From positions 10,694-74,693 of IMG/VR virus record IMGVR_UViG_2775506767_000005: a DNA stretch of 64,000 nucleotides; one strand, given 5' to 3'. Source of the stretch: a virus. Taxonomy: Duplodnaviria; Caudoviricetes. The notes under the pieces were generated by a model. It was given only the letters and a program-made list of their open reading frames with translations. It searched no databases and had not been told where the DNA came from. Position numbers and translations under genes: made by a program. Position 1 is the first letter of the stretch. Each line of letters starts with the position of its first letter. This document shows, piece after piece, positions 18,669 to 26,338 of this stretch.

Positions 18669-19217
18669 ATGGCAAAGCTGCCCTTTAAGACTGAGCCCAA
18701 GACCGAAACTCGAGAGATTGGGAATGAGGATATCGGGATTCTCGAGTTCCCTGTCCTCAACGATCTGACGGTACGTGAGCAGGCTTTCATCACCGACAAA
18801 CTGACGGCTAACTCCACATTTTTGGAGATTGCGCGAATCGCTAACAAGATTTCCAGGGCCACGAAGATGCAGCCCATTGCTGCTCATGCGTTCGTCACTA
18901 GGTGCGTCACCTTCCAGATGCTCGGCAAGGGGACTTTTGACGAGAGGGACGAGAACATGAGAATTAAATATGCTCGCGAATTGGAAGAGCTGGGCGCATA
19001 CCTGCTTAAGTCGCAGTGGGAGCGTCAAGTGGTGACGGCAGCCGCTTTGATTCGATACCGCCTGAAGGGGATGGAGGAGTTCAGCGCTGAGGATGCACGG
19101 GACCTGAGCCAGACCTTGCTAACTGAGATTTACGCTTTCTCGCTGATAGAGACCGGCCAAGCAAGCGACCCAGAAGAGGAGCTGGAATCAGACGTGGCAA
19201 CTGCCCTGGGAAAGTAG
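18669..19217 (+). CDS. Tail assembly chaperone (gpG-like)
   Basis: Ends ..ALGK* with slippery GGGAAAG at 19208-19214. Confidence 0.75.
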   Translation: MAKLPFKTEPKTETREIGNEDIGILEFPVLNDLTVREQAFITDKLTANSTFLEIARIANKISRATKMQPIAAHAFVTRCVTFQMLGKGTFDERDENMRIKYARELEELGAYLLKSQWERQVVTAAALIRYRLKGMEEFSAEDARDLSQTLLTEIYAFSLIETGQASDPEEELESDVATALGK

Positions 19218-19849
19218 AAGACGGCAGCTATACGGAGCCAGAGCCTCTGAGCTGGGGAGATCTATTCTGGAGGGCAAAGCGCCTCTGGCCAGGCGACCCT
19301 CAGTTCTCAACCGAGAATTTTGGTGAGCTTCCGTCGCAATACGTTCTCCGAGCAATTGAAAAAGGCCAAGAGCTTCGGCGGCGCGAGTTGCATGAGGCGG
19401 AAATTGGTGTGGCCAACCTCACGGCCCTGACTGCCAACCTGAATCGCGACACAAAAAAGAGCAGGACCCCTTACAAGGCGGCTGACTTCTGCTTCTTTGC
19501 CAACAGTGCGGAGCGCAATGATCCGGATGAGATCAACGCTGCGGCATATTTCGCATTACTTGAAAGCAAGCAGCTTCCGACCTGGGCTCTATTCATTTAC
19601 TCAGAGATGAAAAAAATAAATACATCCATGGAGCCTCCGGAGCCTTTAGCGGCCATTGGAGATGGATTCCTGCTACTTGCACCTGAGCAGGTTAATGGTG
19701 GCATAGAGGGTCTTCTGATTGCGGAGAAGAGAGTCTCGGGTCAGGTTGTAGAGGTTAAAATAGGCCGCATAAAAGCTAAAATTACATGTCCAGAATTTGA
19801 GGAAATGCTGCTAGCTCGCGAGCACGTTTTTGTCAGTATTGATCGGTAG
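19208..19849 (+). CDS. -1 frame extension of the tail assembly chaperone (gpGT-like)
   Basis: -1 frame is open from the slippery site through ORF 19388-19849 with no stop. Confidence 0.7.
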   Translation, partial: GKVEDGSYTEPEPLSWGDLFWRAKRLWPGDPQFSTENFGELPSQYVLRAIEKGQELRRRELHEAEIGVANLTALTANLNRDTKKSRTPYKAADFCFFANSAERNDPDEINAAAYFALLESKQLPTWALFIYSEMKKINTSMEPPEPLAAIGDGFLLLAPEQVNGGIEGLLIAEKRVSGQVVEVKIGRIKAKITCPEFEEMLLAREHVFVSIDR

Positions 19850-20215
19850 CTGGCGTAATACTTGTCCAGTACTTAGCCAATGCCGGATCTCTATTTCGCG
19901 CCAATCTGAGTGAAAATCCTGTTCACGAAACCATGAAATCCAGTCCCGTGATCCCTTGTTAGCGTTGCAATGTCGACAGGCTGGGATGCAATTACTTGTC
20001 ATGTCCTTGCCGCCGTGGGCCTTAGGTTTCACATGATCAATAGTGAGCGATTTATCATCGATAGGTGTGGCATTGCAGTAGGCGCAGCGGTCACCCCAAG
20101 CGGCTTTGATTGCACGTCGCCAGAGTCGACGCGCTTCGGCGGATGTCATGGCTTCTAAGTGGTAAAGGTGTTCAGACGGTGACTCCCTAAGCGGGAGATT
20201 TTGCTGTGCAATCAC
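19811..20215 (-). CDS. HNH endonuclease
   Basis: CAYC..LTIDHVKPKAHGG...NCIPACRHCNANKG. Confidence 0.9.
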   Translation of the reverse strand: MIAQQNLPLRESPSEHLYHLEAMTSAEARRLWRRAIKAAWGDRCAYCNATPIDDKSLTIDHVKPKAHGGKDMTSNCIPACRHCNANKGSRDWISWFREQDFHSDWREIEIRHWLSTGQVLRQLPINTDKNVLAS

Positions 20216-20354
20216 TTAGAAGTTCGAGCCTTAACCGTTGACAGATGCTTGAAAAACATGTGGACCCTCTGGGCTGTCTGCCCAAGGATTCCGGGCGTCA
20301 TCAGTGATACAAAATCATTCAATCGGAAGCCTGTTGAGACGTGATAAAAGACCC

Positions 20355-20777
20355 ATGGCATTCGTTGAAATCGATTCCGCGGAAATCATTTATGACGTCC
20401 TGGCGTCTGATTCAGCCTTCTCGGCTTTGATCGGTTCGCTTGAATTCGAAGATGGGAATCAAGACGCTCTCTTAGTCGCTTTGGCCTCAAAACCTCTCGA
20501 AGGTATTGACGGCGCGTCTGGGCTGCTAGTTGTTATCGATAAAGATCCTCAAGTGACATCAAAGCGATTGCTTACTACTCAAGTAGTGATCGATCGAATG
20601 TTCACGATCCGTCTGATCCAGTTCCCGAGCGTCTCCCGCAACCTGCGGGCCGCTACTGAGCGACTCCTCCACATCTTCCCTGGCGCAACAGCGATTCCTC
20701 TTGCTGGCCCTGACCTGCTGTCTGGCGACGGCCAATCAGTCATAAAGCTGCCATCAAATCCTGTTGCACAGACCTAG
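20355..20777 (+). CDS. Putative tail terminator
   Basis: Directly upstream of the tail tube gene; late promoter at 20325. Confidence 0.5.
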   Translation: MAFVEIDSAEIIYDVLASDSAFSALIGSLEFEDGNQDALLVALASKPLEGIDGASGLLVVIDKDPQVTSKRLLTTQVVIDRMFTIRLIQFPSVSRNLRAATERLLHIFPGATAIPLAGPDLLSGDGQSVIKLPSNPVAQT

Positions 20778-20853
20778 TCACGGTTCGAACTGTGACTACT
20801 CCGGAACCCTGAAAGGACCGGGGAATTGATCACCCTTTTACTCACTCATTGCA

Positions 20854-21438
20854 ATGGCAAATTTTTCATCCGCGTTCGGCTTCAAGGTCTACTTAGTCCC
20901 TTGCCTGGCCACAGCGGTCAACGTAAGCAGCGTGACTGGCGGTGTTGGCGCAACTGGATTCATCGCCCTGGGCGCATCAGAAGCCAACGTTGTGGCAACT
21001 GATGCCGTGGTCACCGAGGGCACAGTGACCGAAATCAATGTCGGCGGTTCTGACATCGTTGCAGGCGCTGTGACCCCAGTCGAACTGCTCGGATTGACAG
21101 ACGCTTCTCTGTCTACCGACACCTCGTCCGAAGAAGTTGTGACCTACTCCGACGACTCCGGCTACGGCCAGAGCGTTGCGACTTCCAAGAGCTGGTCAAT
21201 CAGCCTTTCTGGAGTGACCGACTTCAATGATGCCGGCTATCAGGTCATGCGTCTCGCAGAGAAGAACAACGTGGCCGGCGGCATTCGCGTCAAGATCGGC
21301 CGAACGACTCCTGCAGGCGAGCAAATTTACGGCTACGCAACTCTTCAGAGCTTCTCCGAAAGTGTCGAGGCTGGCTCGATTGTGACCTACACAATCGAAG
21401 CCGCTGGTTACGGCGCACTGGGTCTCGGCCTTGCTTAG
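20854..21438 (+). CDS. Major tail (tube) protein
   Basis: SLSTDTSSEEVVTY..KSWSISLSG..SFSESVEAGSIVTYTIEAAGYG tube-like motifs; upstream of the tape measure gene. Confidence 0.8.
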   Translation: MANFSSAFGFKVYLVPCLATAVNVSSVTGGVGATGFIALGASEANVVATDAVVTEGTVTEINVGGSDIVAGAVTPVELLGLTDASLSTDTSSEEVVTYSDDSGYGQSVATSKSWSISLSGVTDFNDAGYQVMRLAEKNNVAGGIRVKIGRTTPAGEQIYGYATLQSFSESVEAGSIVTYTIEAAGYGALGLGLA

Positions 21439-22002
21439 CTGACTGGAGGGGCTGAAGGTGCGCTGAGAACCCTCAACGGTTCAAGCGTCACCACCTCCAC
21501 CGGTTTCGCCAATCAGGACACCAATGGTGTTCTGGTTGACATCACCGGCCCTAACGGGGCTATCGGAACCGCTGACATCGTTACAGGCGGCGACCTCATG
21601 ACAAACCTTGAGGTCATTCGCATCTCTAACGACAAATTCAGAGTTGGTGACACCATCACCTTCACTGAAAACGGCGGAACCGGTGTTGCAACTGCAATCG
21701 TCTCCGCTATTCATGAAGGTCAAAAAATTGGCGTCATCTCTGGCGCCGTGGCCTTCAACACCGACAACCCGTTCACCGCTGCTGACACCTCTGGTGTTGC
21801 TGTCACCTTCATTCCTTCGGCTGGCGTCAGCGGCCAGCTTGGAGCCGGCCTAGCCGGAACAGTTACAACCTCAGGCCCAACGCTGCTCGACAGCGTTCAG
21901 CTCACAGATGGCGGCTACGGATTCATGATCGACGACATCATCGAGGTCAACGAAGTTGGCGGACAAGGTGAAGGCCACTTCCGCGTTACTTCTCTCGCTT
22001 AA
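21439..22002 (+). CDS. In-frame C-terminal extension of the major tail protein (candidate amber readthrough), two repeat domains
   Basis: 53 sense codons join TAG 21436-38 to ATG 21598 in the same frame. Confidence 0.6.
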   Translation: MTGGAEGALRTLNGSSVTTSTGFANQDTNGVLVDITGPNGAIGTADIVTGGDLMTNLEVIRISNDKFRVGDTITFTENGGTGVATAIVSAIHEGQKIGVISGAVAFNTDNPFTAADTSGVAVTFIPSAGVSGQLGAGLAGTVTTSGPTLLDSVQLTDGGYGFMIDDIIEVNEVGGQGEGHFRVTSLA

Positions 22003-22105
22003 ACTACCTAACCTCAGCCCTTAGGAAGAACTACGGCATACTCAAGGCTCGCCAATTGGCGGGCCATTTTTATTGGAACCCTAGTCGGAATCTAGGGGCC
22101 TACGA

Positions 22106-26338
<4,233 letters not shown>

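What the first reader, a model, noticed from the sequence alone, without database searches (positions are those of the whole stretch)
20854..22002. Candidate programmed amber readthrough producing an extended major tail protein
Seen: the tube gene ends GCT TAG CTG ACT GGA, and the same frame stays open for 188 more codons (including the stop at 22002). The first 53 codons (LTGGAEGALRTLNGSSVTTSTGFANQDTNGVLVDITGPNGAIGTADIVTGGDL) contain no start codon but have normal codon usage. They complete the first of two internal repeats (GVLVDI..F.VGDTITF.E.GG.G vs GVAVTF..F.IDDIIEV.E.GG.G), so the annotated ATG at 21598 falls mid-domain. There is no terminator and no canonical late promoter between the two parts. 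Known: tail tubes often gain accessory domains by frameshifting (SPP1 gp17.1*, Listeria phages); stop readthrough is known for the Qbeta coat but I do not recall it for a siphovirus tube. Inference: leaky UAG decorates a fraction of tube subunits. This phage would then use two recoding modes within 2.3 kb.
Basis: partly seen in the sequence, partly recalled or inferred. Interest (0 to 1): 0.82.

Follow-up and report, generated by a model that had tools for sequence, protein, structure and literature searches.

The report
Leaky amber stop extends phage tail tube
In this marine S-CBS2-like tailed phage and dozens of relatives, the tail-tube gene ends in the same TAG stop and 15-base signal, followed in frame by a folded add-on domain with no start codon of its own. 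Occasional read-through of the stop probably decorates a few tube subunits, a route not found described for DNA phages.

Summary
The tube gene (20854-21438) ends in TAG. The same frame stays open for 187 more codons, and the first 53 contain no ATG, GTG or TTG.

Comparative evidence supports programmed amber readthrough:
- All 36 distinct junctions that carry an extension read U-UAG-YUG-AYU-GGA-GG.
- Among 56 distinct tube homologues, 24 of 25 that end in TAG carry an in-frame extension. None of the 31 that end in TGA or TAA does (Fisher p = 6e-15).
- The 53 start-less codons evolve as coding sequence (dN/dS 0.21, against 0.17 downstream). They build half of the first of two homologous beta-barrel domains.
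- The annotated ATG at 21598 is not conserved. Some relatives have no canonical start anywhere in the extension.
- The cultured phage S-CBS2 has the same junction, and its extension (gp020) is annotated as a structural protein.
- TAG is an ordinary stop elsewhere in this phage, and no suppressor tRNA was found.

The main rival is re-initiation at the CUG/UUG just after the stop. That model does not explain why the stop is always TAG or why AUG and GUG never occur there. No protein evidence exists yet. Earlier notes of this scan flagged similar candidates on other DNA. I found no published report.

The parts
20854..21435 (+). Major tail tube protein, 194 codons (the short, standard product).
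   Evidence: phrog_38654 E 3e-53 and PF06199 Phage_tail_2 E 6.6e-11. It is 41-47% identical to the tail proteins of S-CBS2, S-CRES1-3 and PSS2.
21436..21438 (+). In-frame TAG (amber) stop, the proposed leaky stop.
   Evidence: TAG in 36 of 36 distinct extension-bearing junctions. Tube homologues without an extension end in TGA (29), TAA (2) or TAG (1).
21435..21449 (+). Conserved junction signal T TAG CTG ACT GGA GG (consensus U UAG YUG AYU GGA GG). It encodes *-L-T/I-G-G.
   Evidence: Across 36 distinct junctions: U(-1) in 35; U+5, G+6, A+7, G+11 and G+14 in all 36; the codon after the stop is CTG in 31 and TTG in 5. By contrast, 0 of 33 four-fold sites with an invariant amino acid keep their third base.
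21439..21597 (+). 53 codons with no canonical start codon; the N-terminal half of extension domain 1.
   Evidence: dN/dS 0.205; entropy at codon positions 1, 2 and 3 is 0.58, 0.45 and 1.32; indels come only in multiples of 3. The model places strands at E6-12, E18-21, E31-36 and E42-50 with pLDDT 77-95.
21448..21726 (+). Extension domain 1 (extension residues 4-96), a small beta-barrel.
   Evidence: AF2 on alignment A3: mean pLDDT 85.7, pTM 0.79. Weak likeness to the EF-Tu domain 2/3-type barrel: Z 5.4, rmsd 2.9-3.4, 73-86 residues aligned.
21598..21600 (+). ATG used by gene callers as the start of a 134-aa ORF. It lies inside domain 1 and is not conserved.
   Evidence: Phe at this position in P0022-P0025, P0027, P0029 and P0032. 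The first canonical start sits anywhere from codon 9 to codon 57 in relatives.
21736..21999 (+). Extension domain 2 (extension residues 100-187), homologous to domain 1 and to the single-domain extension of S-CBS2.
   Evidence: hhalign of domain 1 against domain 2: probability 97%, E 7.5e-11. S-CBS2 extension against domain 2: E 2e-9; against domain 1: E 9e-5.
22000..22002 (+). TAA, the real end of the extended frame.
   Evidence: This terminal stop varies among relatives (TAA 20, TGA 4), unlike the junction stop.
22046..22075 (+). Terminator-like hairpin with a T run, after the extension and before the tape measure gene.
   Evidence: It is the only terminator-like site in 20200-22200. Relatives without an extension (PSS2, S-CRES2) carry such a hairpin directly after the tube's TGA.
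18669..19849 (+). Context: tail assembly chaperone pair G/GT with a -1 slippery heptamer G GGA AAG at 19207-19213. This shows that the ORF between the tube and tape measure genes is not the chaperone.
   Evidence: The -1 frame is open from 19127 to 19849 and overlaps the end of 18669..19217. The heptamer is read. The second part gives a weak PF06223 Phage_tail_T hit (E 0.011).
22106..26338 (+). Context: tape measure protein.
   Evidence: PF10145 E 2e-42 and many tape-measure PHROGs.

Best explanation
I propose programmed readthrough of the amber stop that ends the tail tube gene.

Most ribosomes terminate at UAG 21436-21438 and release the 194-aa tube subunit. A minority decode UAG with a host near-cognate tRNA and continue through a flexible Leu-Thr-Gly-Gly linker into two small beta-barrel domains. 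This gives a 382-aa tube-extension fusion that co-assembles into the tail and displays the barrels on its outside, probably as a weak adhesin or decoration.

The signal would be the local sequence U UAG YUG AYU GGA GG rather than a downstream RNA structure.

Shown here: the anatomy, the conservation of TAG and its context, coding-type selection from the first codon after the stop, the lack of any conserved start, and the fold.

Inferred: that readthrough is the route of expression, that the level is low, the tRNA used, and the function of the domains.
For: 1. Stop identity tracks the extension. Of 56 distinct tube-homologue loci, 23 have TAG with an in-frame extension of at least 60 codons, plus 1 cut by a contig end. 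Another 29 have TGA and 2 have TAA with no extension, and 1 has TAG with no extension. None has TGA or TAA with an extension (Fisher p 5.7e-15). Near-identical tube C-termini (..ELDENAGN) end AAC TGA or AAC TAA when nothing follows, and AAT TAG CTG when an extension follows.

2. The junction is constrained at the nucleotide level across 36 distinct junctions. Ordinary synonymous sites in the same sequences are not: 0 of 33 four-fold sites and 2 of 18 two-fold sites are invariant.

3. The codon after the stop is CUG (31) or UUG (5), never AUG or GUG. That is the reverse of start-codon preference and fits a Leu codon read in elongation.

4. The 53 start-less codons have dN/dS 0.205 against 0.174 downstream, and all indels are in frame.

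5. No start codon is conserved. Its first position ranges from codon 9 to codon 57. Single-domain relatives L069 and L087 have none in 87 and 85 codons, and others have the first one only at codons 62-84.

6. The extension folds confidently only as a whole (pLDDT 85.7). Domain 1 spans residues 4-96. In the full-length model the stop lies in a low-confidence linker, residues 195-197.

7. Tube and extension have been shuffled (tube 44-96% and extension 59-84% identical to the window, uncorrelated), yet the junction is unchanged.

8. The cultured phage S-CBS2 has AAT TAG CTG ACT GGA GGT followed by 85 in-frame codons. These overlap gp020, which is annotated 'structural protein'.

9. TAG is an ordinary stop for 12 of about 65 genes on this contig, and no other TAG has a long in-frame tail.

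10. No terminator lies between tube and extension; one follows the extension.
Against: - There is no protein-level evidence for the 382-aa form.
- No conserved RNA structure follows the stop (consensus energy -3.8 kcal/mol), so any stimulator is only the short linear context.
- In E. coli a pyrimidine at +4 is a poor context for cognate amber suppressors; changing C to A raised supE suppression 10-fold (PMC6266110). The expected leakiness of UAG-C rests on weak release-factor action (Poole et al. 1995, from memory), not on anything tested here.
- YUG directly after the stop is also what a weak re-initiation codon would look like.
- The nucleotide conservation of the junction could partly reflect its use as a recombination linker for swapping modules, with TAG carried along by descent.
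- The counts of loci are not phylogenetically independent.
Confidence: 0.78

Rival explanations
1. Termination followed by re-initiation. Ribosomes finish the tube protein at UAG and a fraction restart at the adjacent CUG/UUG codon. This would make a free-standing 187-aa protein that binds the tail non-covalently.
For: - The codon after the stop is always NUG (CUG 31, UUG 5).
- Gene callers accept the UUG as a start in L022 and L023.
- Adjacent stop and start codons are a known coupling arrangement in bacteria (general knowledge).
- S-CBS2 gp020 is annotated as a separate structural protein.
Against: - Any stop codon would serve this model, yet TAG is invariant and tied to the presence of the extension, while extension-less relatives use TGA or TAA.
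- AUG and GUG never occur at the position, and the weakest start, CUG, dominates.
- The conserved U(-1), A(+7), U(+9) and GGAGG are left unexplained.
- There is no conserved Shine-Dalgarno sequence upstream, because the tube 3' ends vary.
Confidence: 0.12
2. Suppressor-dependent decoding. UAG is read efficiently by a dedicated amber suppressor, pyrrolysine-type tRNA or altered code of the host or phage, so most or all tube subunits carry the extension.
For: The stop is specifically UAG, the codon reassigned in known phage and bacterial variant codes (general knowledge). The host of this contig is not identified. The assembly holding it is only 67.5% complete.
Against: - There are no tRNA genes in the window, on contig C78 or in the complete S-CBS2 genome.
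- None of the 23 tRNAs found in the assembly has a CUA anticodon.
- TAG ends 12 of about 65 genes on the contig with only short in-frame tails, including the chaperone gene G.
- Large ORFs are intact under table 11.
- If the fusion were meant to be constitutive, some lineage should have replaced TAG with a sense codon. None was found.
Confidence: 0.05
3. The TAG-linker block is mainly a recombination adaptor for exchanging downstream modules. The extension is then expressed by some other route, such as a non-canonical internal start, or is barely expressed.
For: The downstream modules are diverse (82-92, 184-188 and 191 codons, of several sequence types) behind one constant junction of about 15 nt. 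Tube and extension similarities are uncoupled.
Against: - Strong purifying selection acts from codon 1 of the extension.
- The folds need the start-less part.
- Some modules have no canonical start at all.
- A pure adaptor would not need to keep TAG rather than TAA over saturated synonymous divergence (mean pS 0.62).
Confidence: 0.05

Closest known systems
Q-beta coat protein and A1 readthrough protein (ssRNA coliphage)
   Same: The major virion protein gene ends in a leaky stop. A minority of ribosomes read through into an in-frame C-terminal domain that is incorporated into the particle. No suppressor tRNA is needed (general knowledge).
   Different: Q-beta uses UGA in an RNA genome and extends a capsid protein. 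Here the stop is UAG in a dsDNA tailed phage, the protein is the tail tube, and a 15-nt conserved linear context follows the stop. Expression is not yet shown here.
SPP1 gp17.1/gp17.1* and Listeria phage A118/A500/PSA long tail-tube forms; lambda gpV C-terminal Ig-like domain
   Same: A fraction (or all, in lambda) of siphovirus tube subunits carry a C-terminal accessory domain on the outside of the tail. The ratio is set by recoding at the end of the tube gene (Atkins et al. 2016, PMC5009743).
   Different: Those cases use +1 or -1 frameshifting or direct fusion, and the domains are Ig-like. Here the extension is in frame behind a stop, there is no slippery site, and the domains are EF-Tu-domain-2-like small barrels (Z about 5).
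Type II viral readthrough contexts (UGA/UAG followed by CGG or CUA, as in alphaviruses and some plant viruses) and the human UGA-CUAG motif
   Same: A stop codon followed directly by C-U, with a short linear 3' context acting as the determinant (general knowledge; reviews listed).
   Different: Those act on eukaryotic ribosomes with eRF1. Here the release factor would be bacterial RF1. The motif extends to +14 and includes a Shine-Dalgarno-like GGAGG.
Synechococcus phage S-CBS2 gp019 (tail protein) and gp020 (structural protein)
   Same: Same gene order, a tube homologue 44% identical by tblastn, the identical junction AAT TAG CTG ACT GGA GGT, and a homologous barrel domain (E 2e-9).
   Different: S-CBS2 has one domain (85 codons) rather than two. 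The record annotates gp020 as a separate gene starting at a GTG seven codons after the TAG.

Membership tests
Programmed stop-codon readthrough (Q-beta A1 type) | A single in-frame stop separates a complete gene from a downstream coding region. | tested here: met
   TAG at 21436-21438, with 187 open codons after it. The same holds in 60 loci.
Programmed stop-codon readthrough (Q-beta A1 type) | The stop codon identity and its context are conserved among diverged relatives. | tested here: met
   UAG in 36 of 36 junctions, with the context U UAG YUG AYU GGA GG. By contrast, 0 of 33 four-fold sites are invariant.
Programmed stop-codon readthrough (Q-beta A1 type) | The downstream region is under coding selection in the zero frame from the stop onward and has no start of its own. 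| tested here: met
   dN/dS 0.205 for codons 1-53. There is no conserved canonical start, and none at all in L069 and L087.
Programmed stop-codon readthrough (Q-beta A1 type) | The extended protein is made and incorporated into the virion. | not testable with these tools
   The only indirect hint is that S-CBS2 gp020 is annotated as a structural protein. The original proteome paper is not held.
Programmed stop-codon readthrough (Q-beta A1 type) | A stimulatory 3' element (a structure or a defined context). | tested here: inconclusive
   No conserved structure was found. A conserved linear motif is present, but its effect is untested.
Tube protein extended by frameshifting (SPP1 gp17.1*, Listeria Tsh long forms) | The extension lies in the +1 or -1 frame and is reached at a slippery site. 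| tested here: not met
   The extension is in frame 0. The codons before the stop vary (GCT, AAT, ATT, GTT, AGT, GAG, CCT), so no shift site is conserved.
Tube protein extended by frameshifting (SPP1 gp17.1*, Listeria Tsh long forms) | The extension is an Ig-like (FN3 or Big_2) domain. | tested here: inconclusive
   No Pfam or PHROG hit. The best structural matches are EF-Tu-type barrels at Z 5.4, and Ig-like folds are not among the top rows.
Tail assembly chaperone G/GT (the usual occupant of the slot between tube and tape measure genes) | Two overlapping ORFs joined by a -1 slippery heptamer. | tested here: not met
   This locus has no such site. The G/GT pair, with G GGA AAG, lies upstream at 18669-19849.
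TAG-reassigned genetic code (code 15-like phages) | In-frame TAG in many genes, TAG not used as a stop, and a suppressor tRNA. | tested here: not met
   TAG ends 12 of about 65 genes. Only one TAG has a long in-frame tail. No tRNAs are present.
Phage_tail_2 (PF06199) major tail tube proteins | A match above the curated Pfam cut-off, and a position in the tail module before the tape measure gene. | tested here: met
   42.8 bits against a cut-off of 23.8. The tape measure gene is at 22106.

The most novel reading that the evidence does not exclude
The 15-nt block U UAG CUG AYU GGA GG is a self-contained, portable bacterial readthrough signal. It sets a fixed low level of amber readthrough by host near-cognate tRNAs without any RNA structure or suppressor. 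At the same time it serves as a universal adaptor, behind which marine siphoviruses swap tail-surface domains.
Probability: 0.4. Interest if true: 0.85.

Novelty: new variant of a known kind. Interest (0 to 1): 0.74.

Why it matters
Stop-codon readthrough as a planned way of making a virion protein is textbook for RNA phages and eukaryotic viruses. For tailed DNA phages the known routes to a minor, extended structural protein are frameshifting or direct fusion. I found no report of readthrough for a tail tube.

Here the comparative signal is unusually clean, and it involves UAG, which is not the usual leaky stop in bacteria. If confirmed, it would do four things:
- Add a third recoding route to phage tail assembly.
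- Define a short bacterial readthrough context that could be tested and reused.
- Correct the annotation of a whole group of marine siphovirus genomes, where the extension is called from arbitrary internal starts or missed.
- Point to a modular, swappable tail-surface domain that is likely relevant to host adsorption in the ocean.

A cultured member (S-CBS2 on Synechococcus CB0204) makes it directly testable.

Tried and rejected
- Sequencing error or recent nonsense mutation: rejected. TAG is present in all 36 distinct junctions.
- Translation only from ATG 21598: rejected.
- The extension as the tail assembly chaperone: rejected. G/GT lies upstream, and the extension is all-beta.
- Global TAG reassignment or a phage suppressor tRNA: rejected.
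- Frameshift or hop over the stop: rejected. The codons before the stop vary and no landing site matches.
- Downstream stimulatory RNA structure: none found. RNAalifold gives -3.8 kcal/mol and only a 4-bp stem.
- Longer proteins carrying this domain (such as uninterrupted tube-extension fusions): none found among proteins of 329-2000 aa (weak evidence). The exhaustive representative search found only one other fusion, P0046, to an unrelated N-terminal domain.
- Function of the extension: Pfam, PHROGs, Foldseek PDB and the ESM Atlas feature search gave no informative family. BFVD gave only weak single-domain matches to cyanophage structural proteins. The atlas structure library was unavailable.
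- tblastn of the extension against the phage collection found nothing, although S-CBS2 proved homologous on direct comparison.
- The S-CBS2 proteome paper is not held.
- Host identity: the assembly lacks phycobilisome and PSII genes at 67.5% completeness, so the bin does not confirm a cyanobacterial host.
- Complex prediction was not used, because no claim of non-covalent binding is made.
Full report
**What is in the sequence.** The ORF 20854..21438 (194 codons) is a siphovirus tail tube protein (phrog_38654 E 3e-53; PF06199 Phage_tail_2, 42.8 bits against a cut-off of 23.8). It ends GCT TAG. The same frame continues CTG ACT GGA GGG ... for 187 sense codons to TAA at 22000-22002. The first 53 of these codons contain no ATG, GTG or TTG. 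Gene callers therefore start a 134-aa ORF at ATG 21598. The tape measure gene follows at 22106. The only terminator-like hairpin in 20200-22200 lies at 22046-22065, after the extension.

**The surroundings.** The slot between tube and tape measure genes usually holds the G/GT chaperone pair. Here that pair lies upstream. ORF 18669..19217 ends CTG GGA AAG TAG with the lambda-type heptamer G GGA AAG at 19207-19213, and the -1 frame is open from 19127 to 19849. An HNH endonuclease gene on the opposite strand (19811..20215) and a 157-aa ORF lie between it and the tube gene. The order of G, T, HNH(-), a gene of about 140 aa, tube, extension and tape measure recurs in S-CBS2 and in most of the metagenomic relatives examined; S-CRES2 has the same order without the extension. 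So the extension is not the chaperone.

The window is part of a 74.7-kb contig, the longest in a 2.72-Mb, 202-contig assembly. The contig has no tRNA gene, and none of the 23 tRNAs found in the assembly is an amber suppressor.

**Relatives of the extension.** A protein search found 45 homologues. Their called lengths were 126-187 aa, because each was started at a different internal codon. The alignment shows amino-acid conservation right up to the residue after the stop, and Met54 is replaced by Phe in several. I fetched DNA for 35 loci holding 24 distinct extension sequences. In every one the tube gene is in the same frame and ends in TAG followed by CTG or TTG and then A. Indels in the start-less part are always multiples of three.

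Pairwise Nei-Gojobori estimates for codons 1-53 are pS 0.62, pN 0.23 and dN/dS 0.205. For codons 54-187 the dN/dS is 0.174. Third-position entropy is 1.3 bits, against about 0.5 at positions 1 and 2. The 53 codons are therefore translated in this frame in all relatives. The first canonical start codon lies anywhere from codon 9 to codon 57, so no internal start can account for that.

**Relatives of the tube.** Scanning viral contigs with a tube alignment gave 79 analysable loci (80 returned), 56 of them distinct.

| Stop codon | In-frame extension of at least 60 codons | No extension |
|---|---|---|
| TAG | 23 (plus 1 cut by a contig end) | 1 |
| TGA | 0 | 29 |
| TAA | 0 | 2 |

Fisher's exact test gives p = 5.7e-15, not corrected for phylogeny. 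The isolates PSS2 and S-CRES2 belong to the class without an extension and have a terminator hairpin right after the TGA. Near-identical tube C-termini (..ELDENAGN) end AAC TGA or AAC TAA when nothing follows, and AAT TAG CTG when an extension follows.

The extensions behind the junction are diverse. There are single domains of 82-92 codons of several sequence types, the two-domain module of 184-188 codons seen here, and a different module of 191 codons. Two single-domain modules (L069, L087) have no ATG, GTG or TTG anywhere. Several others have the first one only at codons 62-84.

**The junction.** Pooling both sets and S-CBS2 gives 60 extension-bearing loci with 36 distinct 33-nt junctions:
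- UAG in 36 of 36.
- U at -1 in 35 of 36.
- The next codon is CUG in 31 and UUG in 5.
- A at +7 in 36 of 36, and U at +9 in 34.
- Then RGR (GGA in 29) and RGN.

The consensus is U UAG CUG AYU GGA GGU. For comparison, none of 33 four-fold-degenerate sites with an invariant amino acid has an invariant third base in the same sequences. Only 2 of 18 two-fold sites do. Other invariant Leu positions use four to six different codons. The stop that ends the extension varies (TAA 20, TGA 4). So the junction is constrained at the RNA or DNA level over about 15 nt.

RNAalifold finds no conserved structure after the stop (-3.8 kcal/mol). The motif includes a Shine-Dalgarno-like GGAGG, but no conserved start codon follows it.

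**Fold.** AlphaFold2 on the 19-sequence alignment of the whole extension gives pLDDT 85.7 and pTM 0.79, all beta, in two domains. Structural matches cover residues 4-96 as one small barrel. They weakly resemble EF-Tu domain 2/3-type barrels (Z 5.4, rmsd about 3 A, 73-86 residues). A Z of this size may reflect only a common arrangement. BFVD gives weak single-domain matches to cyanophage virion proteins, including a 78-aa protein (TM 0.72).

A profile comparison of the two halves gives probability 97% and E 7.5e-11, with repeat 1 starting at extension residue 17.

The full-length model read through the stop (TAG=Q, used for modelling only) has a tube domain, a low-confidence linker at residues 195-197 that contains the stop position, and then the two confident barrels. 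A linker position would tolerate whichever residue is inserted.

**A cultured member.** In Synechococcus phage S-CBS2 the tail protein gp019 ends AAT TAG CTG ACT GGA GGT. It is followed by 85 in-frame codons homologous to the window's domains (E 2e-9 and 9e-5). The record annotates them as gp020, 'structural protein', starting at a GTG seven codons after the TAG. The complete S-CBS2 genome has no tRNA gene. The proteome paper is not held, so I could not see in which gel band gp020 was found.

**Which mechanism.** A sequencing error, a recent nonsense mutation and expression only from ATG 21598 are all excluded by the data above.

Global TAG reassignment is excluded. TAG ends 12 of about 65 genes on the contig, including chaperone gene G. 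No other TAG has a long in-frame tail, and the large ORFs are intact.

Frameshifting or hopping is excluded, because the extension is in frame 0 and the codons before the stop vary.

Two routes remain: readthrough of UAG, or re-initiation at the CUG/UUG next to the stop. I favour readthrough (0.78) over re-initiation (0.12) for four reasons:
- Re-initiation would work with any stop, yet TAG is invariant and strictly tied to the presence of an extension.
- AUG and GUG never occur at the adjacent codon, and the weakest start, CUG, dominates. This fits a Leu codon read in elongation.
- U(-1), A(+7), U(+9) and GGAGG are unexplained by re-initiation.
- C-terminal accessory domains added to a fraction of tube subunits by recoding are a known design (SPP1, Listeria phages; PMC5009743).

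**Points against.** There is no protein evidence. There is no stimulatory structure. In E. coli a +4 pyrimidine is a poor context for cognate amber suppressors (PMC6266110). That +4 C gives weak RF1 termination is from my memory of Poole et al. 1995 and was not tested here. Part of the nucleotide conservation might also reflect use of the junction as a crossover point for swapping modules. Tube and extension identities to the window are uncoupled (tube 44-96%, extension 59-84%).

**Comparison with what is known, and novelty.** Functionally this works like the Q-beta coat/A1 system (a leaky stop on the major structural protein) and like the SPP1 and Listeria tube extensions (a minor decorated tube subunit). 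It is not a member of the frameshift class, because the defining slippery site and frame change were tested and not met. Four literature searches found no description of stop-codon readthrough for a tail tube or other structural protein of a tailed DNA phage. Absence from that library is not proof.

Earlier notes of this scan report similar, untested candidates on other DNA: UGA on tube and capsid genes of E. coli prophages, and a TAG plus Gly-linker on a tube paralogue of uncultured marine phages. I did not check those, and they do not count as support.

I rate this a new variant of a known kind, with interest 0.74. The comparative case is strong and broad, the signal is short and testable, and a cultured phage is available. 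Expression itself remains inferred.

Noticed in passing
window 18669-19849 (slippery site 19207-19213): A lambda-type G/GT tail chaperone pair with G GGA AAG and an open -1 frame. It lies upstream of the tube gene instead of between the tube and tape measure genes.
   Followed up: partly
window 19811-20215 (- strand); also L022, L025, L027, L029, L031-L033, L036, L038: An HNH endonuclease gene on the opposite strand, wedged between the chaperone and tube genes. It keeps this position in S-CBS2, S-CRES2 and most of the metagenomic relatives whose gene tables were examined. This is an unusually stable place for a homing-type nuclease.
   Followed up: no
whole assembly G000; contig C78: The 74.7-kb phage contig is the longest contig of a 2.72-Mb, 67.5%-complete assembly. 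That assembly has no phycobilisome or PSII genes and carries a tRNA-SeC, while the phage's closest isolates infect marine Synechococcus and Prochlorococcus. Either the contig is mis-binned or this lineage has a non-cyanobacterial host. The contig has no terminal repeat.
   Followed up: partly
L036 3613-3873 (S-CBS2 NC_015463, gp019/gp020): The annotated GTG start of S-CBS2 gp020 lies seven codons after the tube's TAG, inside the conserved in-frame linker. The gene boundary in the public record is probably wrong.
   Followed up: partly
L039/L040 4001-4666 (protein P0046): A 221-aa protein on marine phage contigs of about 80 kb carries a homologue of extension domain 1 (52% identity). It is fused without a stop to an unrelated 134-aa N-terminal domain, and sits next to an HNH_3 gene and near a sigma-70 gene. 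The barrel is a mobile module.
   Followed up: partly
L002-L035 compared with the window: Tube and extension similarities are uncoupled. For example, L003 has tube 50% and extension 84% identical to the window, while L007 has tube 90% and extension 71%. This indicates recombination at or near the conserved junction.
   Followed up: partly
L085, tube stop: This is the one tube homologue that ends in TAG without an extension (GCA TAG TCC TGA). It lacks the CTG-AYT-GGA-GG context and has A, not U, at -1.
   Followed up: no
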